The notes beneath the pieces are model-generated. The model saw nothing but the letters and a program-made list of their open reading frames with translations, made no database searches and had not been told where the DNA came from. A stretch of DNA of 60,410 nucleotides from Catajapyx aquilonaris (taxonomy: Eukaryota), in NCBI GenBank assembly GCA_000934665.2, contig KZ537980.1, positions 124,001 through 184,410 of the forward strand. The letters are read 5' to 3'. Shown in pieces: positions 1-46,826 of the stretch. Each line of letters starts with the position of its first letter. Position 1 is the first letter of the stretch. A program made the translations under genes and the position numbers.

Positions 1-280
1 AGATCCCCGATGCTCTTTGTGGTCTTGAAAATGGAGCATGAGGCCATAATTTTATTTTAAAAAACCTTTTATGCAAAAGTGCGTTTACACCAGTCGACTT
101 CTAACACGAAATAAAAGTAACCACCTAGCAGAACTACGGTACTTTAGGACAGTCATTATTATCATAATATTTTAAAATGCAAGAAAATGTTTCAAAATTC
201 AGCCTTATGTGCAGAGTAAATCAGCAAGTGCATTTGACTAATTAACTATCTTCATTTAAACACCACCTGTATAGACTCAC

Positions 281-1261
281 CTCTGTAGGTATGCCTCCCA
301 AAATAACGGTGACCATGACGAGCGTGACAATTTGCACACAAATGTAAACCACATTTGCCCACTTGTCGAACGTGCCTGAATTCGCCGCAGCACTGAAGGC
401 GTAGTAATACAGCGTGGAAATAATATTCGAGAGAAAAGCTGCATAACGAACTGTTACGACGTATCCATAAATCTTTCCTATTTCTCCCGTCACTTCGTAC
501 AGCTCGACAAAAGTTTTGCACGCTGATTTCAGCTCTTTCTCCCATCCTAATTTCTCTCCGTGTCGAGACAAAATGTGCCGGTGTAGTGCACGTACCCTTG
601 AGTTCACCTCACGGAAATGTGCTTTTAAAGCCAGTGCAAAGAAGACCACTTGCATCATTGGTATGTTGATAATCAGGCTGCTATGGACAATCAAAAGCAC
701 CAACGAAACATCGCCCATGTTAATATCCGCGACTGCAGCTATTTCGGTGTAAGTGCCTGTCCAAGATGCAAATGCGACGCAGGTCAAAAGGACAGCACAT
801 GCCACTAATACGCAAGAATATTTACGCAACTTCCGGTTCGTACTTTCAACCGACAATAAACCAGGTTCAATATTGCAAAACCGGTGTATGAGCTTGGGTA
901 CAACCCGTGACTTCGGTTGCATCAGTATGAAGGTAACAATGGGAAACAGGAGCTCTGCTGCATACATAACAGCCTCATTGCAAAGGGTCGTGCTGTCAGC
1001 GTCGTCGTACAATAAGCCCCTCCATTCTTCGGGCAGTGACACGAAGCAGCATATTACGAAGTAGGAAATAATGACAAGTGTGACAACAGCAGAGGGCCAA
1101 CGGCGACAGTGTTTGTCAAATGGTCGTCTAGAATCTGGATCTGAAGTGTACGGCGCCATTCCTCCCGCAATGGACAAGAAAGACACTGGCCTGTATGCCC
1201 ATGCAATAGACATGTCTTGTACGCTCCAAGCTTTTCTACAGCTCGTAACCGCACCTTCCAT
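281..1261 (-). CDS. Gustatory receptor-like 7TM chemoreceptor, long first exon; 3' exons not identified and probably continue past the left edge
   Basis: Multi-TM ORF with insect Gr-like motifs (AYRPVSFLSIAGGMAPY; FFALALKAHFREVNSRV; LYEVTGEIGKIYGY). It ends at a phase-0 donor GAG|GTGAGT at 281/280 after the sixth hydrophobic segment, which is the typical Gr exon layout. The start ATG is uncertain (1261, or the MSIAW ATG). Confidence 0.65.
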
Positions 1262-2259
1262 GGTCAACTCGACCTGTCCACCACACTGAGGCAAAAATTA
1301 CTGCATGATTTCGTGCAAAACGATGTAAAATTGCGCAGGGCATGAAAGACTCGCTTGTTATCTTGAAGAAAACATCTCCAGTACAGACCATGAAAAGCAA
1401 ATTGACAATTTCGTGTGTACAAAGCGAATGAGGTGGTCGTCTTTTACGCCTGCCCGCATCTCATCGGCTCTTGAATGGTCAGTAATTTGGCAGGTATCAA
1501 ATATTCAATTCATCGCAGGCGGCCACAGGTGTAATACATGCCACGTGAATTTTTAAAATGTCATTGATTTATCGAAATGAGGATCACGTGGGTTTATCGC
1601 TTTTATCATTTAGGTAGGGCTTAGTATTTATAATTTATGCTGGGATTCACTGTCCAATGCTGCAATTAAAAATAGTCTCTCAGATGAAAAATGTGTGCAC
1701 CGTTTTATTCACACTGCAAGATCAAAGAGAACATATGACAAGACAGGCAATGGTACAAGCAAAGGAGGAAACAATACTTGAGAAACTTGAAAAATGATTA
1801 CAAAAACTTGCCAATGGTGGTCTGAAGAGACAACTGAAATATGATCAGCTCAGTCAGCTTTGCTGTAGCTCGTAGTATGATTGTGAGTGAAAATCACAGC
1901 TTTGAGGACAGTTTAAGGAACAACTATTCACCTGAATGTATTAGAATCATGCTTGTTATATATTTATTGTGATATAAAACATCAAATTCTCTCCTAACAA
2001 TGTTTTCAAGAGTGTATTCCACAGGTAAAAACTCTAAAAGAGAAGCAGACAAAACAACCTGTGTTAAAACTGAACAGTTTTAAAACATGTTGGTTTTTTT
2101 CCCCACTTAGAAATGAATTTGAACCCAGATACCCCATGAGTATATAAATGCTGTTTGGTATATTATTATGTTACACACAAAAAAAAAAACACTCACACAA
2201 AGCTTGGAATAAAATCGTTACATTGGATATATTTTTTAAACACTTCAACCCAAAATTAA

Positions 2260-5200
2260 CTAAGCCATTATGGCCTGCTGCAAGGCAGAAATGCCCTGGG
2301 CAGCATTTTTATATGGCTTTTTCTGTCTGCCTCCAAGGTCCCACGCAGGGGCCACGAGTGCTCTCGGACCTTCTCTTGCCTGTCCTGGTAGCTTATTCCT
2401 TCTAGCATCTGCCCGCTCCCTCTCAGCTTTTAGGACTGCAGCAGAAGTGTGCAATCCTTTCTTTGCTGCCTGGGCCTTCTTCTCCACACTGTCTGCCACT
2501 GCCTTCCTCTTCTGGCACTTGTCCTCCAGGGCATCAATTCTGGCCATGAGCTCCTTATGTTCTTTTATAGAACGCTTTCGATGGTCATCACCAGTGATCC
2601 AAAACAACCATATTAGAAAGCAGTAGCGGCAAAACACACCAACCTCCTTCATGTGGTAAGATAGCATATGATGTATGGCTAAGGCCACATTAGGCTGCCG
2701 CCAGAATTCAAGCCACACATCCTCCTGGGTCTCTTCGTATTTGGATAGATTAATCAAAATTTCAAGGGCATACTCCAGTGACATAATATCAGCTGGTGAG
2801 CGTAGCAAGCCACGCATAGTGTCAAACAGCAATGGAATCACACTGTTATCTACCAGGGAACGACAGCACCCTGAGAGAAGCCCAGTGCAAGTGGCCATCG
2901 CTTTTAAGGCAGCTCCCAGGTTGGTAACTTCCGACCGATTCATGATCACCCGAAGGGCCCATGCCATTCGATTGCCCAAGCGGTGCGAATCATTAATTTC
3001 ACGGGACACCCGCTGAAGACTGGCACGTACCTCAGAGGCCTCGGGATTACACTTCCGTACCCTATAACCCCGATAGAATGATTGGATAACAGTGGCGGCA
3101 TGGCAAAGCCGCCTGTCCTTCGCCTCCTCCTTTCGCCTCTCCTCTTCCATCTTAGCCTGCCGTACTCTGTATCCCCGAAAGAATGATTGGATGACCGTGG
3201 CAGCATGGCAAAGCTTCTGTTCTTCTTCCTCTCTAAGCCTCCGTTCCTCCTGATCCCTCTTTCTCTGATCTTCCTCTTCGCGAAGCCTCCGTTCCTCCGC
3301 TTCCCTCTTTCTCTGTTCTTCCTCCTCGTGAAGCCTCCGTTCCTCTTCTTCCCTCTTTCTCTGTTCTTCCTCGTCCCTCTTTCTCTGTTCTTCCTCCTCG
3401 TGAAGCCTCCGTTCCTCCTCTTCCCTCTTTCTCTGTTCTTCCTCGTCCCTCTTTCTCTGATCTTCCTCCTCGCGAAGCCTCCGTTTCTCCTCTTCCCTCT
3501 TTCTCTGTTCTTCCTCCTTGCGAAGCCTGCATTCCTCCGCTTCCCTCTTTCTCTGTTCCTCCTCCTCGCGAAGCCTCCGTTTCTCTGCTTCCCTCTTTCT
3601 CTGTTCTTCCTCCTCACGAAGCTGCCTTTCCTCTTCTTCCTTCCTGAGCCGTTCCTCTTCAAGCTTCTTCAGTTCTCTCTCATAGAACTTTCTCTCGAGT
3701 TCCTCATGCAACCTCATCTTCTGTTCTCTCAGTTCTCTAGCCCGCCTTTCCTCTTCCATCTTCCTCTTTTCCTCCTCCTCACGAAGCTTCCTTTCCTCTT
3801 CTTCCTTCCGAAGCTGTTCCTCATGAAGTTTCTTTAGTTCCCTCTCATATAACTTTCTCTTAAGTTCCTCATGTAACCTCCTCTTCAGTTCTTCCAGTTC
3901 TCGAGCTCTTCTTTCCCTTTCTTTCTTCACCCTCTCTTCCTCTTCACGTATCTTTCTTTCCGCCTCCCTCTTCTTTCTCTCCTCTTCCCTTTTCTTCATT
4001 TCCTCTTCACGATGCTTCCTTTCTTCTTCCTCCCTCTTCTTCCTCTCCTCTTCCTCCTGTCGCATTTTCTCTTTTTTCTCCCTCTTAACCCTTTCCTCTT
4101 CTTCTTTCCTCCTAATTGCTTCTTCCCTCCTCTTGGCTGCTAACAATTCCCTCAGTTCCAGCCTCTCCTCTTTAGTCTCTTGCATTTGCCTCCACCACCT
4201 TGTAATTTTCCCAACTGCAGCTTTGGTCTTCAGAAAGGCTAGTCTCCATCTCATACCCAACCACCACCTCTGCAGTTTGGTGGCAGCTGCTTCCATTCTT
4301 GGGCCCTGGTAGCGATGAAGGAGCTGCCAGAGGAGGGATAAGGTCTTTTCCCTGTGTCCATCTACAATGTCACGGGCATCCAAATCCTTCGAAATCTCCA
4401 TCCCGTGACTTCTAAAGGCATTCAGGGCCACTCCAACATTATGGATTTTTTGGCCACGAGACACGGGTGGGACACGGAGGTTTGTTGAGAGTGTCCAGTC
4501 ATTGATTAGGATTTCAGCAATGTGTCTAGGTGAGAAAAAAAACATGAATATGTTAGACTTTGTGGATGAAACATTTACTGTCCTACAAAACTAACATGAT
4601 GATGGTTATTGCATGCACAAAGAGAAAGGCTAACTGTGAGGTGCTTCTCAATACCATCCAAACATCAAATATCATTAAAATCAGATTAGCTGTTGATAAA
4701 TGACAAATGTTACTTCTAGAGAGAAGATATCTGGGTTGCACAATTGCAGGGTTAACACGAAATGCCATGATTACTATCATTTTCAGTTGTCATCCAACAA
4801 TTAATGACATTGTGCAATAATTAACAATGGTAACTCTGAGCAAACCTGTTATGGTGCAACCCAGTCTAACTTGTACAGTCATGCTTCTCCCCACATACTT
4901 GTCCCAGGCAATATTATGGATTGAACAAGGACTTCACAGAACTACAACACTGGCAAATCCTGTGTTCCAATTTAGATATCCATAGTAGTTTAAAACTTTT
5001 TGCACTATCAGCTATCTACAGGGTGGTGCATACGTATGTGTATGATGTTTCACAGGCTGCAGCATTTGAACTACGCATAAAGTATTGGAAGTGGCATGAA
5101 TGTGTGGCCTGAGATTGGGAAAAATGCTGAGCAGCCTCAGAAAACCCCCCATTATTGTGGTAGGGAATGGCAGCGAATCAATTGTCAGAGCAATTGTTGG

Positions 5201-8200
5201 GGCAGCATGTACGTTGTGTGAGTTTATACTACGCAACAAACAATTGAAGACGTCACTTGCCAAAGGCCCAAGTCCCAAAATTTCGAAAAACCGTTTTATA
5301 GTGGATTCCTACTCTTGGAGTCAGGCCTCAGAGCCCTGGTGAAGATGAAGTGCCACAGTCAATCAGAAGTGCTTTAAAATTGAATGTGATGATTATTTTG
5401 CGGTCCATTGCCTACTGCTGGCCTTGGGCCCTTTGGCAACTGACTGGATGTAAATCAGATTCTGATGGGTGTTAATAATAATTAACATAGGATGGAAATA
5501 AAACTGGTTACACCTTTCTTTGTATTACTACTTAACGAATATGATGTGTTGAGATGGACAGGCATGACTATACCACTGAAATTTGAAACATGAAATGTTG
5601 GTGCCGAGTGTCCCCTATAAGGGACACCTGCACAGTTGTTACATTTGAATTTTTTTGCACACGTTCTTCTGCTGCTAAAGAGCTGGCAGTAGTCATGGGG
5701 GCTTCAGTAGAGTCCCAGCTAACGATACAAGTTCAAACCTGCTCAATATTGCTTCAGATTTTTAAGATACAGGTGTTTGAATTTTAACGCAGGAAATAAT
5801 GGCTGCACCTCCACGTTCCGAAGACGATTAGTAATTAATTCTCGAATGTTGATTAGCATTATGAGTTATTTTTTGTTTGTAATACTTAGAAAACTTATGA
5901 ATGATGATGTCGATGTGGAAATATAGGAATATTTTTTACTTTCCTTGTCTGAGAATAGTGTTGAAATCTGGTGTCCCCTCGGGGGAACACAAGAGGCAAG
6001 TGCACCCACTTTTGGACAAGTAATGTATGTGTGCGGATTTTTTACACTTTGTTGAACTGTATTATAATGAATCCATACAATTAAAACGAAATCACATGGC
6101 AACTGATGCAACAATTCTTGATTGTTGTTGATTGTTACTCAATCACCACCCATTGATTCTTTGCACGGCCTGTTTCCATGGTAATGCAATCGACATCAAT
6201 CAATCGTTGGTGATATTATGAAACTATGGATATTGCTGAATGTCACTGTTGCCATGGTAATGTAATCAACAACTGTTATAGCCATACTAGGTTACATTTT
6301 CATGGAATCCCATAATGGGGAAGTAGCCTTCATTTTGGAAACTACATAATAAATTCGCCCATATTTTTTGGATCTTTTTGGCATATTCCGTTTTAAGATA
6401 TCAGTTTCAGTTCCGGAGATATTGGCGTTTTTTCGTAGGCAAATGGTGACGTCACTGTTTGCCTGGAAAATATTGACGTCACGCGAAGTGAAATGAACGC
6501 AAAAATGGTGTTATAGAACGCGCCCCGTCATTGTCGTAAAATGCTTCGCTGTTGTTAGCAACCGTCCCATTCCGTGAGCAAGATAGCGGCCGGGGTGCGT
6601 ATTTATTCCAGGTCGCTCAAGCCGCTTTGTACATGGCAGTGATGCCACCAGGTCGGAATTATCTGTCACCCGAATTCGGCACATGAAGGCCCCCTTTCTC
6701 CACCTCGATGGCCTGCAGCTGCCTTGCGAATGCTTTCCGTCGTGTCCGCGGTTAATTCAAAGTCAAATTCCTCATATCTCGCAGTCAACCAGGCATTTCA
6801 GTGTACCCTTTCGATTGGCACCACCCGGCCGGGGCATTTTTCCCGCCAATTTTGAAGGCACTTTTAAATGTGCCGTAATTTATCCAGTAATGTCATTTTG
6901 ATGCAACAAAGTGATGGAATGTATGTTTACAGGCATGGGCTAGCTAGTTATGAACAAAAATCCCAAATCCCAGACCAAGGCTACTTCCCCATTATAGGGA
7001 ACTGCCATTTTCTCGCAAACAAGCATTCAGAAAAATGCTTTATCTCGATTTTTGTGTTTAGGGAACTAACATGAACTAATAGAAACAAAAAAAGTTCAAA
7101 ATTTCAACAAAACTTTTCCAGACATATCTGGGTTAAGTAGACAGTTCCGTCCTAAGCAAAAAATGCGATCTTAGGATTCATTTTCTCATGGACCATCCAT
7201 GACTCAGTTGTTAAGGATGGCATGTGAGGTCTTGCCCTGGTGGAAAAATCTGGTGTACTTTGAGCCAATACATCACTAATTTTCAGGCAACAGTCTACAC
7301 TACATCATTACTAAATTTGGATCATTTTCAGCCAAGACCTAAATGTGAAGAGCCGCTGATTTTCTTCCAAGCTAAAATTTCAGCATGGCCCAATATGTGA
7401 TAGGGCTCCATCCTTGCATATCACATTTAGGTTGTGGGTGTGTGTGTTCACCCATAATTTTTCAATAAAATGCAAGATCATCAAACACCAACTTCATGAG
7501 ATGAAATGACCCCGACGAGTCATTATGGGTGATATTTATTTCACCTCAGCATCCAGTCCCTGACTAGATATTTTGGGTTCAGATTCGCATCTGTTTCAAA
7601 AGGGAATTGTAGCTCTTGCCCTGCCCAGGTGCATGCCATTCGATTTTACCATAATCAGATGCAGTGGGGAAAAAACCCTCATACCATTTGACAATTTCCC
7701 TAAAATTTTGGAAATGGCAATCCTGTCAGTTGTTTCCTGCATTGTAAGGCATACTCACACTAGGCGCACCCCACAACGAAGGTCCATTCCCAGATTGGTG
7801 ACTGCATACTCAAATTCATCTAGAAATTTTTGTTCGTGAACCAGCTTGTATCCAGTGAAAGACAGTTGTCGGGAAAGGTCACCTCCACCTTTCACTAGGT
7901 CACGAGTGAAAGTAAGCAGCAGATCTCGGCTGGACTGTTAATAAAGAAATGCAGATATTAGCAGGCAATTCCACTCATGAAAATTGCTTTACAGCATGAC
8001 CAGAAAGAGGAAGCAATAATTCCTCTTCACCACTTCATTTCACCATTTCCTTGGCAGCTACTAATATTTCATTGACAACCACACACACTCAGAAATTGCA
8101 TATTGGGCATGGCTGACATCCATTATCATAATCTATGATAAGAAATAATTTTCACAAGCTCCACACACTATTCAAACAATGTGAGAACAGTTATATTGAA

Positions 8201-11126
8201 ATTGTCAGAATTTAATGTAGCACAGTGAAAAATCAGGCTGGCCAACCTAACTGCAGGGAGTCCCAAAAGGAGAGATCTGCCATGCAAAGTTGGTGATACT
8301 AGCCAAACAGTTATGAGCATTAGCCCATATCAGCCCTTCAGAAACAAAATTTCAGACAACATGCACTTGACAGTCAGCTCTTTACCTTGATCGCTGAGGT
8401 CTTCCTAAAGAGACATGGGTCATGTCTGATGAGGTGGCTGGTCTTGGCATGGTCGAGGAAGAAAACAAGCATGAGCACTTTTCGGAATGTGAACTGTTTC
8501 TGTTCCACTTCAAATCCAGGGCCATAGAGATGGGGTACGGTGGGATGGGCATGCTTCTTCCCTAGGGTGGGGTTGTACAGAAGCCTGTTGATAATAAACT
8601 TGGACAAGCCAAGCAAGTCCGAGTTTGACTGAAGAGGGATGATCTCTCCATACACCACTTCCAGTCCTATGCGGAGCCATATGGAGTTGTACGACAGCAG
8701 GGTTGAGAGAACCCCTTGCTTTAGACCTAGAAATACAGAACATGAGGGCATTATGTCTGTTCTGTTAGTTTTCAAACTTAGATGACAAGAGTGATAAAAT
8801 ACACATCTGGAAACCATTCCACTGCATCCCCTTCCTTCTCACCCTGCTTGGCATACCTTTCTCCGACCATTCCTCCAACATCCTTGCCTCACTCTATCAC
8901 CCCAACCCCAGCTGACTTTTGTTACACAAGATGAAAAACTTAAGGTTCGACAACTAAACAAACGAGTTTTTTAAAATTGGGCCTGGCACTGGAATAAAAT
9001 TGAGCTTATCTCTAGGAAAGTGTCCTTGTTAACTGAACAATCATGGGCCTCCTACTTACCAAGATCCTTGTGTAAATCTCGATCACTTCGGATGACATAG
9101 CTCTTATTGTCAATGAGGTGCACAACCTTCTCCAGCACCTTTGCCACCTCCTCAGACTGAAAGGTGCGAATGGCTGCCTGCCTCAGTACATCAAGCCGGC
9201 CTTTCACCTTGTAGGCACTGAGCATCACTGCCTCCTTGCTTGGGGCCGGAATGACATTCTTGCCTTTCATGCATCGCTGCCAGATCTCTACTACATTGTC
9301 AGCTAAGAAGGACATGTGGTTAGAATAGGAGAGTACTAATAGTATAATTTATCACAAAAAAACTCACCTAGAGAACCTGAGTTGTCACAACTGAGTTCCT
9401 CAGGTGGTGTGAGAAGAGCATTAAGCCACTTCAGGAAGTCCGTCTCCTGGCGAGACACCCACTTTTCATCGTAGAACATCGTGCTGGAAGTTTGTAAATT
9501 TTAGCATAAGAAGAATAGCTAAAGAACAAATCCAGTCATCTTACGTCACCAATCAGTGACAGGATGAACAATCACACAATAAAAATAATGATACATGCAG
9601 TTTCAACACACTAATCCAACAACATAACATCATCAGAGCTGCAGAACTTATCTAATGTGCAATAAAATAGCATTGCCACATTCATTAAAATTTAACTACT
9701 CAAATAACATGGGCAAATACTACTCTCGAAAGCCTAAAGTGTTTGAAATACCTGATGGCAAAGGGATCCACAGTGGTTGATGACGCAAATGGGTCCACAC
9801 GACTTGATGTCAGCATAGTCTCAGGATCGTAGAGCTTCACTGGTGGCAGAGGCTGAACACTGTGCAGTGGCTTTACATGATGTGAGAGTGACAGGCGCTG
9901 CTGTCTTGGTGGGCGCTGATATGAGATGCGCCGCTGTGGCGCTGATGATGCAACTGATGTCATGCAGGCCATCTTTCTGCCCTTGGAAGGAGGTGAGATG
10001 GTAAGAAATGACTTCCGCTTTCTTTGGCTGGAAGTGTTTCTTGGTTCTTGTGTAGCAGGTGGCAAATCCCTAGTTAGCAAAAGACGTGGAGGACCCATTG
10101 TGCTGTCAGCGGTCTTGACTTGAGCATCCCGAGCAGCCTCGCTGGCAATACAATCATCATAAGGCCTTTCAAAGATGGTAGAAGCTCTGGAGCGTGGCTT
10201 GTAAGGTGTTTCTGAGGCAATAGTAGATGTTGATCCAAAGCAAGGATAAGGCACTGCTACTCTTAGGGCAGTTGAAGTGAGACGTGAATCAACTGGAGTG
10301 AAATTGAATTCCCGCCTCAAACGTTGGTCAAATGTTGGATGTTCCTCAGTCGGTGTCATTCTGGGAATTACAAACGTCTGGCGGTGCACTGGAGTTCCTT
10401 CAACATCACAAGGTGGCAGATCTGCCTCAATTGGCGACTTCTGGCTAATAGAACAAGTTGCACCTGCCTCCACTTCTGTGGGTAGTGCTTGTGCTACATG
10501 CCCAACAACTGGGGTGAAATCAAACTGATCCAAGTTAAAAGTCCTTGGGTATGGGGAATCATTTTCCTTGTTCCGATCTGATGCAACCAAAAAGGTTGAG
10601 CGACGAGATGGAGTCTCCTCAACATCACAAGGTGGAATTTCGCCCTTTGGACTTACGAAAACTTCATTGACTTCATCCATTTGGTCACTCCTTGCAGGTT
10701 CGATTTGTACGTCACATGGTACACTCCTCGTTGGTGGTTTTGTTTTGATTGTTTCAGACATGCAAGGCAGTGAACCCATTTTTTTCCTTCGAAGAGCCTT
10801 CTTCCTTCCCTGTAAATAGAATACCTTCATTAGGTCATCTGTAATCATGTTAAGCTCATCGGTTTTGCATATGTTATTAGTGGCCCTTGCCAAGACCTAT
10901 TTCTAGTATTCACTTTTCTTGGTATTTGCATGACGGGATCAGCGAACACCAAACATAGGAAAATAATTTCTCGATAATACCCCCGCCTGCAACTCGGAAT
11001 TTTTACATAATGGGATACGGTAGAGTAAATGTGGGTGCATTTGGTGATTTTGTGCAAAATAATTGTGCAAAATAATTGTACCCACATGCCAATGCATCAG
11101 GCGTTCAAAATAGGTCCTGACAGCAT

Positions 11127-11219
<93 letters not shown>

Positions 11220-12298
11220 ATAATAATAATAATAATAATATTAATAATAATTTGTACCCCATGCTAGAGCCATGGGCTCTCTTAGGGGGGGGGTGGGATA
11301 CCACCAGATTTTTTTCTGTCTGGAACTCTTTCTTGCATTTTTACTTTTTCCTTATTGGGGATGGGATAGGGACAGAAGGAAGCGGCTGTGGCCTATAATT
11401 ACGGACACAACCCCGGAATTGTCCTGGTGGGACCATGGAAAACCACAGAAAACCACGGTCAGGGTCGGCGGCCCCTGGGGTTCGAACCCAGGACCTCCCG
11501 ATTAGCAGTCGGATACCATATCCCCTCCGCTACCACTGCTTCGGTTCCTGACAGCATTTAAAAATCACTCAAACATCTGAAGCAACCCTACATAAAATTT
11601 TCTAATAATGTGTCACATTAAAGACATTTTTAAAACATGTACGTAAGACAGTGTTGATCTTGCTATACCTTGGCAGTGCGTGGTTCGACTGCAATTCCAT
11701 GTAGGAAGAACCTGTATCGGGATCCATTCACAACGTTGACATGGACAGATTCCCGAAATTGGACCTCCTTCATTGGAGTCCACGACACTTCGAGTTCCAT
11801 CTTTCCCGAGGCATCGATGTTAAAGCGTTGCTCCATTTGAAATTCATCAGGAACTTTCTCGATGACAACCTTAATTTTAAAAAAGGACCAGGTCAGTTGG
11901 GGGAAAATTAAACGCAAATTATTCCTTACCTCACTAGCATTTTTGGGGCTGAAAATTATAAGCTTCCTAGTGACTTGAGTCCCAACCTTCACCTCTCCAA
12001 AACTAACAGTCGGCTGGGAATTGAACGGAGCCAAAGTCAAAAAGGCAGCTTCACCAACGTCATCTCCCTTTCTAGTCCTCTGCGGTGGCGATATTGTCAC
12101 CTATACATTTAGTGTGTGAAAAGTGACAATAATTAGAACTTGCACTTTCATCACATTGGCACTTGGCATATTTAGAACCATTGTGGGGGGCTATGTACAC
12201 CCCAGGGCAGCTCTCCTCACCTGAAACGCCTTGAGGCTCCTGATCCTAGGCAACTCTGCCTGTGGGTTGGTCACATCCTGGAACAGCCGCTCCTCCAT
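2260..12298 (-). CDS. asp: Abnormal spindle protein (Asp/ASPM orthologue), ~1549 aa, 9 coding exons
   Basis: Exons 12221-12298, 11930-12100, 11669-11869, 9752-10809, 9368-9483, 9060-9302, 8386-8726, 7759-7934 and 2260-4525 are all GT-AG and total 4650 nt in frame. Motifs: ASH-like N-terminus (LTLAPF..VSFGEV), FYDEKWVSRQETDFLKWLNALLTPP, LLSYNSIWLRIGLEVVYGE, CH domain (DLRCGVRL..DIVDGHREKTLSLLWQL), IQ motifs and a C-terminal helical domain (LLRSPAD..ILINLSKY). Confidence 0.93.
3215..4185 (-). repeat. Coding E/R/K-rich tandem repeat region in the last asp exon (24/48-nt units plus a larger duplicated block)
   Basis: Translation shows repeated EEEEQRKREAEERRLR and EEEQRKRD units, plus two copies of ERRAREL..LHEEL.RK.YERELKKL.EE.LRKEEEER.LREEEE. 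The plus strand is pyrimidine-rich with recurrent TTCCCTCTTTCTCTGTTC. Confidence 0.9.
5252..5445. mobile_element. Small MITE-like inverted-repeat element in an asp intron
   Basis: GTCACTTGCCAAAGGCCCAAG (5252) is inverted relative to CTTGGGCCCTTTGGCAACTGAC (ends 5445). Confidence 0.45.
6308..7000. mobile_element. Non-autonomous TIR element in an asp intron
   Basis: TCCCATAATGGGGAAGTAGCCTT on the left and AAGGCTACTTCCCCATTATAGGGA on the right enclose a CpG-rich non-coding core. Confidence 0.55.
11131..11545 (-). mobile_element. tRNA-derived SINE (family A) with (TTA)n microsatellite tail and 16-bp TSD
   Basis: TSD TCCTGACAGCATTTAA at 11115-11130 and 11546-11561. Head ACCGAAGCAG..., B box GGTTCGAACC, central GTGGTTTTCC..TAGGCCACAGCCGCTTCC. 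The tail is the AAT array at ~11131-11250. Confidence 0.88.
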
Positions 12299-18530: not shown

Positions 18531-20035
18531 ATGACGTCTGCTGTCTACCTGGAGCATTACCTGGACAGTGAGTTCTCAGGGCGGCTGCATTCTCGAATGT
18601 TACACAGGACTTTGGGGAGGATCAGAGACAGAAGGCTGTTGAACTTGGCTGAATAATAATAATAATAACCATAACAAAAACAGCAATAATAATAATAATA
18701 ATGATGAAGATGATAATAATAAGGATAATAGCAGGCTTGCAAACAACTTTTATAAAGTTTCTCATTATTTATTTATTTTCATTTTAAGGTTTGGAGCACT
18801 TGCCGATTGAGCTCCAGCGTAACTTTACGTTGATGCGTGACTTGGACACGAGGGCACAGAATTTGATGCAGGAGATTGACACCCTGGCGGACAAGTACTT
18901 GCAGAATGTACGCACCTTCACACCGGACACCAAAAAGGAGAAGATGGAGGAGATACAGAAGCTGTTCAACAAGGCCAAGGAGTATGGGGATGACAAGGTC
19001 CAGCTTGCCATACAGACGTATGAGTTGGTAAGCATCGCAGACACCAGCTGTATGGTGTTTGGTGGGTTTAACAGAAGAAATGCTCATAATTAATGCCATG
19101 AGCATTTTTATTAGAAAAGTAGAGGTTTGAATGGGCAGGAGGTACACAGTAATATGATTGTCATATCAATATAATGGACACGCAAACCTGTTTCATGCCA
19201 CTAGGTTGACAAACATATCCGCCGCCTGGACTCAGACTTAGCTCGCTTTGAAGCTGAGATCAAAGATAAGACCCTGAACAGCACGAGGTCAAAGGACAGC
19301 GAAACTGGACCCAAAAGTAAGTCACTGTTGACGTGCATTATTCTGCGACAATGAAAGAGATCAGGGAAAAGGGGGTGCCATTTTGCTGATTGAAATTTTT
19401 TTTAGGTGAATTAATCAATCATAACTCAAAGTGGAATCTGAAAGATATATTTTCAGGCTATAAGAACTAATTTTTATTCTCCAGCAAATTGTGGCTGCTG
19501 TAGTGTAGACAATCGCTTTTCTTTTAAATTGGGGTTTTCAAACTCGGAGGGCTCTTCTAATGTGCTTTCTCATGTGATAGAAGGCCGCAAGAAGCTGAAG
19601 GAGAAGGAGAAGAAGAGGAAAGGAGGTACTGGTGCGAGTGGAGGTGGTGGCGGTGGGGGCAGTGGTGGTTCAGGAGGTGTGTCTGGAGGTGGGACTGGTG
19701 GTGGGGCCAGCTCTGAAGAGGACTCATCCACACCCAAAGGAGGTGGGGCCCGGAAGAAGCAGAAGAAAGGATCTGGCAGTGGTGCTGGAGAGTCGAGCAT
19801 AGCCGCTGTCCTCTCATTTGGGATAACTCATCCGTCAGACGTGCTGGACATGCCTGTTGATCCAAATGAACCCACTTACTGTCTCTGTCACCAGGTTTCC
19901 TATGGAGAAATGATAGGATGTGACAACCCAGACTGTCCCATTGAGTGGTTCCACTTTGCATGTGTTGGGCTCACCACTAAACCTAAGGGCAAATGGTACT
20001 GCCCAAAGTGCTCTGCAGACAGGAAAAAGAAGTGA
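18531..20035 (+). CDS. ING4: Inhibitor of growth protein (ING4/ING5 orthologue), PHD finger, 280 aa, 4 exons
   Basis: Exons 18531-18567, 18789-19027, 19205-19316 and 19581-20035 total 843 nt. Translation: [56 protein letters not shown], and [58 protein letters not shown]4 and ING5 cannot be distinguished by eye. Confidence 0.93.
18651..18731 (+). repeat. Imperfect (AAT)n microsatellite in ING intron 1
   Basis: Direct reading: AATAATAAT..CAATAATAATAATAATAATGATGAAGATGATAATAAT. Confidence 0.75.
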
Positions 20036-22951: not shown

Positions 22952-24485
22952 TCACGGAACTGATGAATCATTCCTGGTGCAACACTGAGATGGTACTGCC
23001 TTCCAGTCATATTTATACGAATTTCTGATTTTCACTTCCTCTGCGCACAACCTTCCAAGTGTCCTCAAGCTATCATGCTTCTTCTTCATCATCTGTGGCG
23101 TCTGCTTGTGAGTGACCAGGTAACTATTGTGGCATCCCCTTGAACGGTACTCAGTATCAAAGCGTACTTCATGCACCCTCCGTATATCTAGAGGAGCTGT
23201 CCATACTCCAACTGTCACATCTTCACTCTGGTAATGCTTAAGCATATCAGCATTGCGAGCAATGTACCGCACTATATCATGTGTCAGTACGTACCCTCCA
23301 CCCTTAGCATAAGGAAGGTAATGGTCGCATAAGAACCAGTCAGACTCACGCCACCTGCCAGTCCTCTTAACTACGGCCCGCCCATCAAAAAAGCCCCAAT
23401 ACAGGCGAGTATCAAAATTGGCAGCCTGCAACTCTACAATTAAATCTGGCACACGTACATACGTGTCATCATCACATTTTAACACATATTTAAATTGCGA
23501 GTGCTCTATTCGTACAAAAGCAGCAAGTACTTTCCTGGTTAATAACCGGTAATCATCCTCAATGTCCTTCAGCAACAACAAGTCCTGGAAGCGCCGTTGC
23601 TCCGAAATTAAAGTCTTATTCTGCTCAGCCGTGACCCTTTTTGTACCAATCACAAAATAATGGTGCACAGTGCTCACATCCAGCCCATGCTTCAGCCATG
23701 TTTGCCTGAAAATGCAAACGACCATTAACGAAACTATGAACATGTTATAAAACGGGGTGACTCTAAAGTCTGGACGCATCTAGGTAAAATAATATAGTCG
23801 GTTGCTAGAACCAATTGTCAACCAACAGTACAATACACTTACCTATGTGTCATTGAGAGTCACCCCGTACAATAAAACCAAGACATGTAGTGACCTCCAG
23901 TTCCAGTGTAAGCTCTGGTATTATCGCTGTGCATTGCTGTGCCTGCAAATGCGATGTAAGACTTACACCGGGATGTCATTACACTCTGATGCCTATGCAA
24001 CAGCTGAAAAATTAATAGACAGATTGATGCAATTAAATAGCCTATCCACACCTGACAGTAAAGGGCTAATGGGTGTAGCTGGCAGCACTGAAAGAGCGTA
24101 CACCTCTTCCATTCTCCATACAGAGCATGTACTAGAGCTTACACCGGCCATACCAAGAGGTAACCACAGCTTGCGACCCGTTGCGGCCTAAATGACAAGA
24201 GCATGCAAGCATTTGCCTTGAGGCCGTCCTCTGCTCCAGGTTGTCCGGACCCGACAGCACCAGGATGAGCAGCGTGGTGCCCTCCGCCCCCGGCTGGTCC
24301 TCTCCCAGCAGCTGTCCTCCTGCCCCGCACCGCCTTCCGTCCCCTCCTCCGCCACACCTGACGTTGCAGGCGTCCGGGTCCACCAGCACCAGCATCAGGG
24401 TGCTGCCCAGGATGAACGAGAAGAGGGTCACCAGGACCGTCCTCAGGTCCAGGGGGGCCCGGCACCACCGGCAGCACGGCCTCAT
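22952..24485 (-). CDS. B3GALT6: Beta-1,3-galactosyltransferase 6 (GT31, GAG linker GalT-II), 340 aa, 2 exons
   Basis: Exons 24217-24485 and 22952-23705 total 1023 nt and are joined by a GC-AG intron. Type II TM N-terminus, LILVLSGPDNLEQRTASRQTWL, YVLKCDDDTYV, LYWGFFDGRA, CDHYLPYAKGGGYVLT, SEDVTVGVW, RFDTEYRSRGC, YDWKAVPSQCC. Confidence 0.92.
23752..23868. mobile_element. Short MITE-like remnant in the B3GALT6 intron
   Basis: 13-bp inverted repeat ACGGGGTGACTCT / AGAGTCACCCCGT, resembling Tc1/mariner-type MITE ends. Confidence 0.4.
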
Positions 24486-24958: not shown

Positions 24959-27900
24959 ATGAACTCGACTTTGGACATGGACGGGAAGGATGAGGTCCAG
25001 AGTGTGTACTCCGGGGTGGTGCAGAGTTTTGCCATTATCCTGTGCGGATATGTGGCAGCTAAGCTCAAGCTGGTGACAGGGACGGAGGCTAAAGGACTGG
25101 GGACTTTTGTGGGATGCTACTGCCTTCCAGCACTCATTTTTACTTCTCTAGCGCAGCTTGATTTTACGTGAGTTGGGTGGAATGGCAATTTTCGTATTTT
25201 GTTTTTTTTTTGTCCATATATTTAAGAGTGTGCCACATTTCAGGTCTGTCAACTGGACTTTCTTGTTGGCAATCTTTATCTCCAAGGCTGTAATATTTTT
25301 TATGGTGATGGCTGTTTCGGCCATAATCAGCCATCCTCCAAGATTAGGAAAGAGTGGACTCTACCCTATACTGTGCACCCAAAGCAACGACTTCGCAGTT
25401 GGATTTCCAATCGGTAATAAACCAACCGTAAACTAAGCATGTTTGACCCTGGAGCATGAAATGCCATTTTATCGTCAGACCATTTCATTTTTATTGCATT
25501 GATACTCATATATGAGACACTAGCAGGTTACCCGGCGTTGCCCGGGTATGTTGGGGTGCTGGTAAAGATAGGGGTACATATCTGTGATAGATTACCTGCT
25601 TGTCTTATAGCATACAGTCGACACGGATATTCTGATAGGATGTGTAAAAGGAGGACCCTGCATGTTTGACCCCTTGACCCCCCAACCCCACTTCATACCC
25701 CCACCTCGTTCCATATGTTTGCTCTGAATAACTTTAGAAATGTACATACAGATGTATGATGGGAAATTTTGTTTTCAACACGGAGTAATATTTTGCAAGT
25801 ACTGTATTATTTAATTGCATTTACTTTGTCTGGAAGTCTACTTTCAAATCCCACAAAATCCCGGAATTACCATAAGATACGAAGTCACGTGAGGTGGCCA
25901 ATTAGAGTAATTGGTGGATGCGCTGAATTTACGGAGATGGTTTAATTTGCAAGGTATTGTGGCATAAGGGCATTTCCTAGGGGAGACAAAGTGGCGCTGC
26001 GGAAACGTCGGGTTCGATCCCAGCCCGGAGTTCCCTCCTTCATCCCGTGCAGAGTTGGGTCGTCTCTGGCTTCGTTTCGGGTGGAATCTCCTCAGACCCC
26101 GGGGGAGTTCACAAAATATACCGTTTGAGAATTGCACTTGCACCTTGCACATCCCCTCCCAGTCACCCTGCCCGTGGGCCCGGGCGCTACGTCAAAAAGG
26201 TTCCATCAAGACGAAATAAAGGTTCCCCCCCCTGCGGTACGATGCAGGGAGGTAAATAGCTTAAAAAAAAGAGAGGCATTTCCATGGGAATGCAAATTGG
26301 AATTGATGTCAGCTAATTGTTGAGGCAGGAATATGCGTGTTGTGGGAGTTAGGTACATTTTCGGAAGCTGAAACATGCGGCGTTAGATTCCTTGGAAAAA
26401 GTAACCCCCGATATGCTAATTTAAGGCGGTGTAAGGGCCTTCCCCTGGATTTCTATAAGGGACAAACAAACTAACAATGAAGCTTCCTCATTTATAGATT
26501 AAGAAGATTAAAATTTTCAACATTTGATTTGTGTGACATTAAACAGTGGTGTATTTTTTAATATCATGATTACATACCGAAGCAGTAGTGGTGTAGTGGA
26601 TATGGTGTCCGACTGCTAATCGGGAGGTCCTGGGTTCGAGTCCCGGAGGCCGGCGGTCCTGACCTTGGTTTTTTGTGGTTTTCCAAGGTCACCCCAGGGT
26701 AATCCCGGGATCGTACCGTTAAATAGGCCACAGCCGCTTCCTTCCTTCCCTGTCCTGGAGGAGGCACGGTGTTCGGTGGGGAGCTTCCGGCCGCGCCTAG
26801 GGGGGTGTCTAAGCTTGGCCCCCTGAGGGACTGCACATGGCCCCCACCACAGGACAATGCACTGCACCTTTGTTCCTCCCTCCCTATCCCTGCACCAGTG
26901 AGATTGAAAAGCATAGAAAAATGGAGATCTCCTCCCCCTGCATTGACCAATTGGACTCAAGGGGGAACGAAAAATAAAATAAATAAATAAATAAAATATC
27001 ATGATTACATGCACATAAATGAAGTGATGTGCTGTATGCATATTTGTTTAAAGTATTGATATTTCCTTGTAATAAGTGAATTATACCAGTTTTTCTTTGC
27101 TTTGCAGTGTACAGCTTGTACCACTTGAGCAACCCTGACTATGCTCGCTACCTCTACTTAATTGCCCCGATCAACTTGGTGATGCTGAACCCCATTGGAT
27201 TCTTACTGATGGAGCTTGAAAAGGAAAAGGAAAGTCGTCAAAGGGGGCAGCATCGTCACTGGTGTTGTGTAGCCCTGGCTGTCTTCCGTGGTATTCTCCT
27301 AAACCCAGTGGTGCTTATGACTCTGTTGGGGATAGCAGGCAACTTCATCTTTGCCCAGAAAGTGCCTGCACTCCTTTCGGGTGTCCTTCAAGTCCTTGGA
27401 TCTGCCTTCAGTGGAACTGCCCTTTTCCTTCTTGGACTGAGAATGGTATCAAATGCACAGGACTATCGAGCTTCTGGATTGGTGGCCACTGGTGTTCTCA
27501 TAACTATCAAAACGTAAGAAGGGTCACCGAAGTGAGAGTAACGTTAGTCCATGAAGGTGTGTTTTTTCTACAGTGTTTTTCATTTGCAGGTTTCTCCTCC
27601 CAGTGGTAACCCAGGAAGTGGTGTACCTTCTCAACTGTGGTTCCACGCCTAATGAGACACTGTCCTTGAGCAATTTTGGCTTCCTTTATGGGACCTTCCC
27701 AACAGCTCCTGGTGCCTTTGTGTATGCTTCCCAGTACGAGCTGGGAGTTGACATGGCTGCAAGGGCTCTCGTTGGATCCACCTTCCTCTCGGCCCCTCTG
27801 ATGCTCACCTCTGCCAAGATGATCTCCATGGCATCACTTCCACCATCAGACTACATATCTGATTTTCACACCTTTCTCTTTGACCTCTCCATCTTTGGAT

Positions 27901-30802: not shown

Positions 30803-34357
<3,555 letters not shown>

Positions 34358-46718: not shown

Positions 46719-46826
46719 NNNNNNNNNNNNNNNNNNNNNNNNNNNNNNNNNNNNNNNNNNNNNNNNNNNNNNNNNNNNNNNNNNNNNNNNNNNNNNNNNN
46801 NNNNNNNNNNNNNNNNNNNNNNNNNN
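46719..46826. other. Assembly gap (108 N) flanked by G-runs
   Basis: Run of N directly visible; poly-G follows on the right and another G-run lies ~50 bp to the left. Confidence 0.99.

What the first reader, a model, noticed from the sequence alone, without database searches (positions are those of the whole stretch)
3040..4300. Asp/ASPM in which the calmodulin-binding IQ array is replaced by a ~320-aa E/R/K single-alpha-helix-like rod
Seen: after the CH domain there are only two degenerate IQ-like motifs (AATKLQRWWLG, AVGKITRWWRQ). They are followed by ~320 residues of proline-free alternating E-runs and R/K-runs, then two near-identical IQs (LCHAATVIQSF[F/Y]RGYRVR) before the C-terminal domain. 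Known: Drosophila Asp and vertebrate ASPM carry tens of IQ motifs in this position, and E4(R/K)4 periodicity defines stable single alpha helices (myosin VI/X, caldesmon, INCENP). Inference: this lineage swapped a calmodulin-stiffened rod for a self-stabilised helical spacer, up to ~45-50 nm if continuous at 0.15 nm per residue. That would be a natural test of whether the Asp IQ array is mainly a structural ruler.
Basis: partly seen in the sequence, partly recalled or inferred. Interest (0 to 1): 0.8.

Follow-up and report, generated by a model that had tools for sequence, protein, structure and literature searches.

The report
Asp/ASPM with charged helical rod spacer
An arthropod version of the spindle-pole protein Asp/ASPM keeps only the first and last calmodulin-binding IQ motifs, and a 322-residue glutamate/arginine/lysine stretch that looks like a stable single alpha-helix fills the space between them.

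Summary
The minus-strand gene is a real Asp/ASPM orthologue, with an ASH domain, a CH domain, IQ motifs and an armadillo-like C-terminal domain. Its last exon (4525..2263) encodes a 322-residue stretch without proline or glycine (4182..3217) that is 78% charged, with E-runs and R/K-runs alternating every ~8 residues. Opposite charges at i+4 number 88 against 48 in shuffles (z 9.3). AlphaFold2 predicts helix almost throughout.

A spliced contig from an independent run joins 4525 directly to 7759, so that transcript has no hidden IQ exon, and no joint lies inside the rod. The two degenerate IQ-like motifs align to the first two IQs of a beetle Asp. The last IQ aligns to the last IQ of other orthologues. 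The rod therefore sits where the inner IQ array should be. No other ASPM homologue examined (217-218 per scan) has anything similar.

Not shown:
- that the helix is monomeric
- that it acts as a length spacer
- when the change happened; no close relative was available and the genome is not held

The rod DNA is tandemly repeated (48, 72 and 165 bp), so part of it is recent.

Verdict: a new variant of a known family, of moderate to high interest.

The parts
11663..12100 (-). Open frame holding the ASH (ASPM-SPD2-Hydin) domain exon of the Asp/ASPM gene. The exon ends inside this frame are approximate, because this part was not covered by the laid stretch.
   Evidence: Pfam ASH PF15780, E 1.4e-12, 48.1 bits against a cut-off of 27.
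9752..10819 (-). Large exon encoding the low-complexity N-terminal linker. The 3' end at 9752 is confirmed by a joint. The 5' end near 10819 is inferred from an AG acceptor.
   Evidence: The spliced contig covers 9752-10472 and shows joint 9483->9752. The acceptor context was read. The frame stays open through all junctions.
9368..9483 (-). Exon.
   Evidence: Joints 9302->9368 and 9483->9752, both CT..AC on the + strand, which is GT..AG on the minus strand.
9058..9302 (-). Exon.
   Evidence: Joints 8724->9058 and 9302->9368.
8386..8724 (-). Exon of the conserved region that precedes the CH domain. It is the best-conserved part of the protein.
   Evidence: Of 313 candidates, 174 proteins reach E<=1e-3. 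The best hits are named ASPM, at 60-61% identity to oyster and mammals. Joints 7934->8386 and 8724->9058.
7759..7934 (-). Exon holding the N-terminal half of the CH domain.
   Evidence: Joints 4525->7759 and 7934->8386. The spliced protein aligns at 48% identity with human isoform 2 residues 683-1056.
4526..7758 (-). Intron of 3233 nt (GTGAGT...CCTAG) that contains very high-copy repeats.
   Evidence: One contig of run X5 joins 4525 to 7759. DNA runs X1 and X2 have no such joint. Intron ends were read. The strict IQ regex finds no motif in any frame of the intron.
4306..4525 (-). Start of the last exon, encoding the C-terminal half of the CH domain (P0001 residues 23-95).
   Evidence: Pfam CH profile positions 54-108, 22.8 bits. 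This is below the 26-bit cut-off because only half the domain lies in this exon. 40% identity to beetle Asp 749-866.
4234..4290 (-). IQ-like motif 1 (P0001 101-119, AATKLQRWWLG...).
   Evidence: Pfam IQ 20.6 bits against a cut-off of 20.3, E 3.4e-4. Aligns to the first IQ after the CH domain of beetle Asp.
4186..4218 (-). Degenerate IQ-like motif 2 (P0001 125-135, AVGKITRWWRQ), in which the Q is replaced by T.
   Evidence: Pfam does not report it as a separate stretch. It aligns to the second IQ (AAIVIQKWYR) of beetle Asp.
3217..4182 (-). E/R/K rod of 322 residues (P0001 137-458) and the candidate single alpha-helix. It is built from nested tandem repeats: 66 bp (residues 173-218), 165 bp (229-335), 48 bp (317-459) and 72 bp (359-435).
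   Evidence: Composition. Charge-pair and octad statistics. TRF arrays mapped to residues. No Pfam family. AlphaFold2 predicts helix. Listed contigs of X5 cover 3456-4525 and 1803-3331.
3151..3213 (-). Canonical IQ motif 3 (LCHAATVIQSFFRGYRVRQAK).
   Evidence: Pfam IQ, 2 stretches in this 61-residue piece, 49.8 bits. Strict regex hit at 3192.
3109..3150 (-). Short E/R/K-like linker between the two IQs (MEEERRKEEAKDRR). It may be the kind of seed from which the rod expanded.
   Evidence: Read from the translation. It lies within the 105-bp, 1.8-copy tandem duplication at 3055-3241.
3052..3108 (-). Canonical IQ motif 4 (LCHAATVIQSFYRGYRVRK), the conserved last IQ next to the C-terminal domain.
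   Evidence: Best Pfam IQ stretch, P0001 498-513. BLAST alignments to orthologues start here, at P0001 497-498.
2263..3051 (-). ASPM C-terminal domain of 263 residues: an armadillo-like solenoid, then a long helix, then a disordered tail. The stop codon is at 2260-2262.
   Evidence: phmmer finds 99 representatives at E<=1e-3, best 2.4e-10. AlphaFold2 with a 20-row alignment gives pLDDT 80, pTM 0.68. The best PDB folds are ZER1/ZYG11B and designed armadillo repeats, at weak E 0.015-0.1 and TM 0.4-0.47.
1803..2259 (-). 3' untranslated region, at least to 1803.
   Evidence: X5 contig record 17 runs from 1803 to 3331 without a joint.

Best explanation
This is the expressed Asp/ASPM orthologue of an arthropod. 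The inner part of the calmodulin-binding IQ array has been lost, and a 322-residue E/R/K stretch fills its place.

The stretch most likely folds as a stable single alpha-helix (SAH) held together by i/i+4 and i/i+3 salt bridges. If continuous, it is about 48 nm long. It runs on as helix from the two vestigial IQ motifs after the CH domain into the two canonical IQ motifs before the armadillo-like C-terminal domain.

In this reading the rod does what the calmodulin-clad IQ array does as a structure. It holds the N-terminal microtubule-binding half (ASH and CH) at a set, semi-flexible distance from the C-terminal module. Calmodulin control is kept only at the ends, chiefly at the conserved last IQ.

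The rod grew by tandem duplication of purine-rich 24-, 48-, 72- and 165-bp units. The seed may have been an E/R/K-like inter-IQ linker such as the one that still lies between IQ3 and IQ4.

Shown: the identity of the gene, the splicing, the position of the rod, its charge pattern, its predicted helicity and its rarity among homologues.

Inferred: the monomeric state, the spacer function and the evolutionary route.
For: Gene identity:
- Pfam finds ASH, CH and IQ.
- The conserved pre-CH exon is 60-61% identical to named ASPM proteins.
- The spliced protein is 48% identical over about 370 residues to human, spider and oyster ASPM, and 41.5% over 479 residues to beetle Asp.
- The C-terminal domain hits 99 representatives and folds as an armadillo-like solenoid.

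Expression and exon structure:
- One 2667-nt contig of run X5 carries 5 joints with GT..AG ends on the minus strand, among them 4525->7759.
- DNA runs X1 and X2 carry none of these joints.
- No joint lies inside the rod.
- The frame is open through all junctions, 1429 codons with only the terminal stop.

Position of the rod:
- The N-side motifs align to the first two IQs of the beetle protein.
- The last IQ is where alignments to orthologues start.

SAH features:
- 78% of residues are charged and net charge per residue is -0.03. This compares with about 76% charged and balanced in myosin SAHs (PMC5378345, passages read).
- There is no P or G.
- Opposite-charge pairs at i+4 have z 9.3, and at i+3 z 4-6. 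Same-charge pairs at i+4 have z -11.
- Hydrophobic residues are 12%, and a/d occupancy is <=0.25 in most 28-residue windows.
- AlphaFold2 on the single sequence gives mean pLDDT 82 with helices at 3-247 and 269-419 of 420 residues.

Rarity:
- ER/K-like segments occur in 2 of 217 other homologues. One is 47 residues long. The other is 28 residues and N-terminal.
- Other homologues have at most 1 octad per protein (n=218), against 21 here.
- The spacer from CH end to last IQ is 399 residues and 70% charged here. In the 118 of 218 homologues that have both anchors it is 473-2341 residues and 19-30% charged.

Against: - No biophysical test exists.
- The published SAH predictors (Waggawagga, CSAH tools) and real coiled-coil predictors could not be run. 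My scores are home-made.
- Two copies of a 55-residue unit (P0001 about 214-250 and 277-305) carry Leu at 3-5-residue spacing and reach a/d occupancy of 0.5-0.62. They could pair.
- AlphaFold2 breaks the helix at P0001 343-363 with pLDDT 52-58, and pTM is only 0.26. The rod may be two helices or may fold back.
- R outnumbers K by 78 to 43. R-rich model peptides were reported to aggregate (PMC5812594, passage read).
- Differences between repeat copies show no clear purifying selection: 11 synonymous against 12 non-synonymous codons between the 55-residue units, and 0-1 against 3-4 between the 24-residue units. Parts of the rod are therefore recent and could be tolerated rather than selected.
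- Fly Asp needs calmodulin for pole focusing and for stability of its C-terminal half (PMC4674283, passages read). The array is therefore more than a passive rod in at least one species.
- No close relative was available, so the order of IQ loss and rod gain is unknown.
Confidence: 0.6

Rival explanations
1. The E/R/K region, or at least its Leu-bearing middle third, is a dimeric coiled coil or an intramolecular helical hairpin. It would oligomerise Asp rather than act as a monomeric spacer.
For: - The two 55-residue units (P0001 229-283 and 284-338) have Leu/Tyr/Phe at 3-5-residue spacing and a/d occupancy up to 0.62.
- AlphaFold2 splits the rod into two long helices.
- The C-terminal half of fly Asp binds full-length Asp in cells (PMC4674283, passage read).
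- The SAH authors state that one point mutation may switch between SAH and multimeric helices (PMC5378345, passage read).
Against: - Hydrophobic residues are only 12% overall.
- The dominant period is about 8 residues, not 7 or 3.5.
- a/d occupancy is <=0.25 over most of the rod, including the whole C-terminal 140 residues.
- Patterns built from even-numbered motifs are expected to give straight helices rather than intertwined ones (PMC5812594, passage read).
Confidence: 0.17
2. The rod is a selectively neutral minisatellite expansion of a purine-rich coding repeat inside a tolerant linker. It may be helical or disordered, but its length and stiffness have no specific role, and the inner IQ array was lost independently.
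For: - The DNA shows nested tandem arrays: 72 bp x3.2 at 94% matches, 165 bp x1.9 at 85%, and 48 bp x8.9 at 79%.
- Synonymous and non-synonymous differences between copies are about equal.
- IQ number varies widely among orthologues. The review gives 24, 60 and 81 (PMC10047693, passages read), and Pfam finds 4 to 20 stretches in the invertebrate models scanned.
- The spacer here is the shortest of 119, at 399 residues.
Against: - The N-terminal third of the rod (137-228) keeps the same charge alternation while being only weakly repetitive at the DNA level; TRF lists a 66-bp array of 2.1 copies at 81% there. It therefore looks older than the rest.
- The reading frame and the absence of P and G are kept over 966 nt.
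- The i+4 charge pairing is far above what the composition alone gives.
- Whatever the selection, a sequence like this is expected to be helical.
Confidence: 0.18
3. The gene is a divergent paralogue or a minor isoform, and the canonical many-IQ Asp of this animal is encoded elsewhere.
For: No genome is held, so paralogues could not be searched for. Only one spliced contig from one run was seen.
Against: - The ORF is intact through all six exons examined.
- The conserved parts are as similar to human, spider and oyster ASPM (48%) as those are expected to be to a true orthologue.
- Neither the window nor the intron holds another IQ-coding frame.
Confidence: 0.07

Closest known systems
Drosophila Asp / beetle 'protein abnormal spindle' (P0339, Dalotia coriaria) and vertebrate ASPM
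   Same: - The order of parts is the same: ASH domain, conserved pre-CH region, CH domain, first IQs directly after CH, last IQ abutting an armadillo-like C-terminal domain.
- As in the beetle protein, there is only one CH domain.
   Different: - Fly, mouse and human have 24, 60 and 81 IQ motifs (PMC10047693, passages read).
- The beetle protein has about 840 residues between the CH end and the last IQ, 29% charged.
- Here there are 399 residues, 70% charged, with 3 Pfam-level IQs and a 322-residue E/R/K rod.
Myosin levers that combine IQ motifs with SAH domains (classes 6 and 10; class 38 with alternating IQ and SAH)
   Same: A helix of IQ motifs runs directly into an E/R/K single helix. IQ and SAH are treated as interchangeable length modules (PMC5378345, passages read).
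   Different: - This is not a motor protein.
- Myosin SAHs average 37-81 residues, and the longest are about 200 (PMC5378345). This rod is 322.
- Repeated E4(K/R)4-type octads are called extremely rare in natural eukaryotic SAHs (PMC5812594, passage read). Here 21 octads lie mostly 8 or 16 residues apart.
Human ASPM isoform 2 (lacks exon 18, 1892 aa; P0181)
   Same: It is a natural form of the protein with most of the IQ array removed and both ends kept (PMC10436222, passage read). The spacer from CH1 end to last IQ is 562 residues.
   Different: The shortening is by exon skipping, and what remains is a second CH domain plus IQ motifs (29% charged). Nothing replaces the lost array.
C. elegans ASPM-1
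   Same: An Asp orthologue that works with very few IQ motifs.
   Different: No E/R/K rod is known to me there. I did not examine the sequence.

Membership tests
Asp/ASPM | N-terminal ASH (ASPM-SPD2-Hydin) domain | tested here: met
   Pfam PF15780, E 1.4e-12, 48.1 bits against a cut-off of 27, in the frame 11663-12100(-).
Asp/ASPM | Conserved central region ending in a CH domain | tested here: met
   48% identity over about 370 residues to human isoform 2 (683-1056), spider and oyster ASPM. Pfam CH on the half-domain in the last exon scores 22.8 bits, below the 26-bit cut-off.
Asp/ASPM | Second CH domain, as in human, spider and oyster | tested here: not met
   IQ-like motifs follow the first CH directly, and the transcript contig has no further exon. 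The beetle Asp likewise shows a single Pfam CH followed by IQ. This feature is therefore not universal in the family.
Asp/ASPM | Long array of calmodulin-binding IQ motifs between CH and the C-terminal domain | tested here: not met
   Only 3 Pfam IQ stretches and 1 degenerate motif. The strict regex finds 2. The rest of the spacer is the E/R/K rod.
Asp/ASPM | Conserved C-terminal armadillo/HEAT-like domain preceded by an IQ | tested here: met
   99 representatives at E<=1e-3, 21-34% identity. Of the 10 looked up, those carrying a protein name are ASPM, Asp or CH/IQ-domain proteins. The AlphaFold2 model has pLDDT 80 and pTM 0.68, and its best folds are armadillo repeats at weak E values of 0.015-0.1.
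Asp/ASPM | Calmodulin binding and spindle-pole function | not testable with these tools
   Needs pull-down, localisation or knock-down experiments.
Stable single alpha-helix (SAH / ER/K motif) | About three quarters of residues charged, with acid and base balanced and only helix-favouring residues | tested here: met
   130 acidic and 121 basic of 322 residues (78% charged, net charge per residue -0.03), no P or G. The benchmark of 76% comes from PMC5378345.
Stable single alpha-helix (SAH / ER/K motif) | Dense network of opposite charges at i+3 and i+4 | tested here: met
   At i+4: 88 and 88 pairs against 48 expected (z 9.3). At i+3: z 4.0 and 5.9. Same-charge pairs at i+4: 16 against 96.
Stable single alpha-helix (SAH / ER/K motif) | No heptad hydrophobic seam | tested here: inconclusive
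   a/d occupancy is <=0.25 in most windows but reaches 0.5-0.62 in P0001 214-250 and 277-305.
Stable single alpha-helix (SAH / ER/K motif) | Uninterrupted predicted helix | tested here: inconclusive
   AlphaFold2 gives helices at 3-247 and 269-419 of 420 residues, with a low-confidence break at P0001 343-363.
Stable single alpha-helix (SAH / ER/K motif) | Published predictor score (Waggawagga SAH-score >=0.25) | not tested
   The predictor is not available here, and its score table is in a PDF supplement that I could not read.
Stable single alpha-helix (SAH / ER/K motif) | Monomeric, helical and non-cooperatively unfolding in solution | not testable with these tools
   Needs CD, SEC-MALS or AUC, or force spectroscopy.
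Dimeric coiled coil | Heptad (a/d) hydrophobic core along the segment | tested here: not met
   12% hydrophobic residues. The charge and hydrophobic periods are about 7.85 residues, not 3.5 or 7. The feature is met only locally in the two 55-residue units.

The most novel reading that the evidence does not exclude
This is a natural IQ-array-to-SAH swap outside the myosins. A spindle-pole protein would have replaced about 20 calmodulin-clad IQ motifs with one self-stabilised helix of about 48 nm. That helix is built from repeated E4(R/K)4-type octads, it is longer than any myosin SAH reported (about 200 residues), and its pattern is said to be almost absent from natural eukaryotic SAHs. If the protein still focuses spindle poles, the bulk of the Asp/ASPM IQ array is a length and stiffness element, and calmodulin is needed only at the terminal IQs.
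Probability: 0.3. Interest if true: 0.75.

Novelty: new variant of a known kind. Interest (0 to 1): 0.55.

Why it matters
What the very long and variable IQ array of Asp/ASPM does has not been settled. The gene is the one most often mutated in human primary microcephaly. The array could be a calmodulin-regulated switch, a scaffold, or simply a stiff spacer.

An orthologue that keeps the homologous end IQs but fills the middle with a calmodulin-independent charged helix offers a ready-made test construct. The rod could be put into fly or human Asp/ASPM in place of the inner IQs, to ask whether pole focusing, centrosome attachment and calmodulin dependence survive.

For helix biophysics, it would be an unusually long natural example of a repeated-octad ER/K helix.

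Neither use has been shown here. The finding is a sequence-level architecture with transcript support.

Tried and rejected
1. The look-up of sequencing runs: no RNA holder is listed. Five runs from 2 studies hold the stretch, and none is on record as RNA. I infer that X5 is RNA-derived only from its spliced contig.

2. Read laying: the listed contig pieces do not cover 3332-3455, the 94%-identical 72-bp repeats, in any of the 3 runs. The copy number there could not be checked, and I draw no conclusion from it.

3. Complex prediction with two copies of the rod (after 13 queue refusals): the verdict was 'no answer', score 0.00, and the controls were not folded. This is not evidence either way.

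4. The search for homologous proteins with the C-terminal domain against longer proteins: 1 hit among 1461 candidates, a bird ASPM at 30% identity. This was too insensitive, and one search replaced it.

5. The search of solved structures with the rod: 1 match, a bacterial secretion substrate, E 1.7e-5. I judge it a low-complexity match and uninformative.

6. The search of earlier findings: nothing.

7. The genome search 'own': no genome is held, so paralogues and other E/R/K expansions in the genome could not be sought.

8. IQ-less ASPM models (P0173, P0186, P0215, P0217) looked at first like precedents. They end right after the CH domain, so they are truncated gene models and were dropped as comparators.

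9. Papers: no paper in the library holds both 'ASPM' and 'single alpha helix' (32 papers with 2 or more of 3 terms), and none holds 'abnormal spindle' together with a charged-single-helix term (16 papers, 12 listed). Subscription journals are not covered. The supplementary tables of PMC5378345 (an old .xls file and PDFs) were not opened, so a listing of ASPM-like SAHs there cannot be excluded.

10. + strand frames over the rod (for example 3187-3837) are open only because the complement of a purine-rich repeat lacks stop codons. The splice joints show that the gene is on the minus strand.
Full report
**What is there**

The window carries a multi-exon gene on the minus strand. Its last coding exon is one long open frame (2260-4590), translated as P0001. 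Pfam finds IQ (E 5.3e-12, 3 stretches) and the C-terminal half of a CH domain in it, and an ASH domain in the frame 11663-12100.

Between AVGKITRWWRQ and the first LCHAATVIQSF lie 322 residues (P0001 137-458, window 4182..3217) made of E 125, R 78, K 43, L 27, Q 16 and A 9, with no proline or glycine.

**Is it more than chance?**

I compared the rod with 2000 shuffles that keep its composition.
- Acid-to-base and base-to-acid pairs at i+4 number 88 each, against 48±4.3 (z 9.3).
- Pairs at i+3 have z 4.0 and 5.9.
- Same-charge pairs at i+4 number 16 against 96 (z -11).
- The strongest charge period is 7.85-8.05 residues.
- Octads with at least 3 of 4 acids followed by at least 3 of 4 bases number 21, against 5.9±1.9 (maximum 13). 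They lie mostly 8 or 16 residues apart, and 18 acidic runs are exactly four long.
- Charged residues make up 78%, and net charge per residue is -0.03.

**Gene model and expression**

No run is on record as RNA. One 2667-nt contig of run X5, from a different sample and study than the DNA runs, lies on the window with five joints:
- 4525->7759
- 7934->8386
- 8724->9058
- 9302->9368
- 9483->9752

All are CT..AC on the + strand, which is GT..AG for a minus-strand gene. DNA runs X1 and X2 show none of them (intron ends read). I infer that X5 is RNA-derived.

Joining these exons gives one open frame of 1429 codons with only the terminal stop. The intron 4526-7758 is thus joined directly, and no IQ exon hides in it in this transcript. 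A strict IQ regex over all six frames of the window finds four matches. Two are the known IQs of this gene, and the other two are unrelated hits at 24369 and 51203, outside the gene and its introns.

X5 contigs cover 3456-4525 and 1803-3331 without any joint inside the rod. The window's N runs are far away, at 40717 and 46719-46826.

**Family membership**

- The exon 8386-8724 finds 174 proteins at E<=1e-3 among 313 candidates. The best are named ASPM, at 60-61% identity to pearl oyster and mammals and 56-58% to spider and copepods.
- The spliced protein aligns at 48% over about 370 residues to human isoform 2 (683-1056), spider and oyster, and at 41.5% over 479 residues to a beetle 'protein abnormal spindle'.
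- The last 263 residues hit 99 cluster representatives at E<=1e-3 (best 2.4e-10, 21-34% identity). Of the 10 I looked up, those carrying a protein name are ASPM, Asp or CH/IQ-domain proteins from fish, bivalve, annelid, beetle and Capsaspora.
- Folded with a 20-row alignment, this domain is a helical solenoid followed by a 50-residue helix and a disordered tail (pLDDT 80, pTM 0.68).
- Its best solved look-alikes are ZER1/ZYG11B and designed armadillo repeats. The scores are weak (E 0.015-0.1, TM 0.4-0.47). They agree with the 'HEAT/Armadillo-like' label in the review PMC10047693 (passages read).

**What kind of animal**

A neighbouring gene is a 7tm_7 chemosensory receptor. The EFTUD2 exon in the window is at best 78% identical to cockroach, katydid and termite proteins, and 74-75% to myriapod and chelicerate proteins. 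I read this as an arthropod with no close annotated relative in the collection. I went no further.

**Where the rod sits**

The two degenerate motifs after the CH domain align residue for residue with the first two IQs of the beetle protein: AVISVQMWWRS and AAIVIQKWYR. The second has lost its Q here.

The last IQ is the point where BLAST alignments to beetle, spider and other orthologues begin. In the spider protein it also coincides with the best Pfam IQ stretch, at 1405-1421.

The rod plus one duplicated IQ therefore stands exactly where the inner IQs stand elsewhere. The first IQ-like motif just passes Pfam (20.6 against 20.3 bits), the two C-side IQs pass strongly (49.8 bits), and the rod hits no family.

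**Is this the norm?**

It is not, as far as the data reach.
- With a window-based ER/K filter, 2 of 217 other ASPM homologues show any segment. One is a 47-residue piece in an unnamed 2222-residue protein, and the other is a 28-residue N-terminal piece in the oyster. A stricter filter finds 1 of 100.
- No homologue has more than 1 octad (n=218).
- For the 118 of 218 homologues in which both anchors could be placed, the spacer from CH end to last IQ is 473-2341 residues and 19-30% charged. Here it is 399 residues and 70% charged.
- Four models without IQ hits proved to be truncated after the CH domain and were dropped.
- The review gives 24, 60 and 81 IQs for fly, mouse and human (PMC10047693). 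Human isoform 2 lacks exon 18 (PMC10436222, passage read).

Variation in IQ number is therefore known. A charged-helix replacement is not in the papers I could search.

**Structure**

AlphaFold2 on P0001 96-515 (single sequence) gives mean pLDDT 82 and pTM 0.26. It predicts helices at 3-247 and 269-419, running through the IQ-like motifs into the rod and from the rod through both IQs. There is a low-confidence break at P0001 343-363.

Hydrophobic residues are 12%. a/d occupancy is <=0.25 in most 28-residue windows but reaches 0.5-0.62 in 214-250 and 277-305.

The SAH literature describes the following:
- about 76% charged residues, with acid and base balanced
- average lengths of 37-81 residues, with the longest myosin SAHs about 200
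- IQ and SAH as lever modules usable in any order (PMC5378345, passages read)
- repeated E4(K/R)4 octads as extremely rare in natural eukaryotic SAHs
- aggregation of R-rich model peptides (PMC5812594, passages read)

The rod fits the SAH description. It is unusual in its length and its octad regularity, and its R:K ratio of 1.8 is a caution.

**Origin**

TRF finds nested arrays in the rod DNA, which I mapped to residues:
- 66 bp x2.1 (residues 173-218)
- 165 bp x1.9 at 85% (229-335)
- 48 bp x8.9 (317-459, unit REAEERRLREEEEQRK)
- 72 bp x3.2 at 94% (359-435)
- a 105-bp duplication that made the two C-side IQs (450-512)

Copies differ by about as many synonymous as non-synonymous codons. The rod therefore grew by slippage or unequal exchange, partly recently. 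What is kept is the composition and charge pattern, not the individual residues. The 14-residue E/R/K-like linker between IQ3 and IQ4 shows what a seed could have looked like. That last point is inference.

**Verdict**

I give 0.6 to the reading that this is the working Asp orthologue, with an SAH-type helical spacer in place of the inner IQ array and calmodulin sites kept at both ends.

The rivals are:
- a coiled coil or hairpin in the Leu-bearing middle (0.17)
- a neutral low-complexity expansion without a length function (0.18)
- a paralogue or minor isoform (0.07)

The monomeric state, the function and the timing all need experiments or data that I could not reach.

Noticed in passing
window 4186-4525 (-) and exon 7759-7934: This Asp has a single CH domain followed at once by IQ-like motifs, as in the beetle protein P0339. 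Spider, oyster and human homologues have a second CH domain about 60-130 residues further on.
   Followed up: partly
window 5166-7307 (inside intron 4526-7758): Very high-copy repeats. The summed word depth of DNA contigs reaches about 450 to 100,000, against about 30 on the flanks, in runs X1 and X2. Some copies are also present in X5.
   Followed up: no
window 242-1297 (-): Open frame of 351 residues matching Pfam 7tm_7 (chemosensory/gustatory receptor), E 8.5e-21. It lies immediately downstream of the asp 3' end.
   Followed up: partly
window 3580: The window and X5 have T, while the DNA-run contigs of X1 and X2 have C. This is the third base of Lys codon 337 in the rod (AAA/AAG), so the variant is synonymous.
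   Followed up: yes
window 2179: All three runs have contigs lacking one base relative to the window, in the 3' UTR. This may be an assembly error or an indel allele.
   Followed up: no
window 11341-11529 (-) and 26570-27047 (-): Two stretches translate to near-identical peptides (for example ...RKEAAVAY... and ...SNPGPPD) in the ORF lists. This looks like a dispersed repeat, perhaps SINE-like. ARAGORN finds no tRNA in the window.
   Followed up: no
window 11114-11300: A long AAT/ATT-type microsatellite, read as poly-N on the + strand and poly-L on the - strand in the ORF list. It lies in the intron between the ASH exon and the next exon.
   Followed up: no
window 19442-20035 (+), 22952-23779 (-), 27080-27517 (+), 31061-33856 (-): Other genes in the window: a PHD-finger exon (ING-like by its sequence, which is my reading), a Galactosyl_T gene in a single open frame, a Mem_trans exon, and EFTUD2/Snu114 exons (GTP_EFTU, EFG_IV, EFG_C).
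   Followed up: partly
window 2263-2560 (-), C-terminal end of Asp: After the armadillo-like part, the model has a single 51-residue helix (C-terminal-domain residues 166-216) and then a disordered tail with pLDDT below 50. Pfam gives only sub-threshold coiled-coil-type rows there. It could be an oligomerisation helix.
   Followed up: no
P0095 residues 1166-1212 (unnamed JGI protein, 2222 aa): The only other ASPM homologue with an internal ER/K-like piece, 47 residues long and just after its CH domains. It may be a small-scale parallel to the rod.
   Followed up: partly
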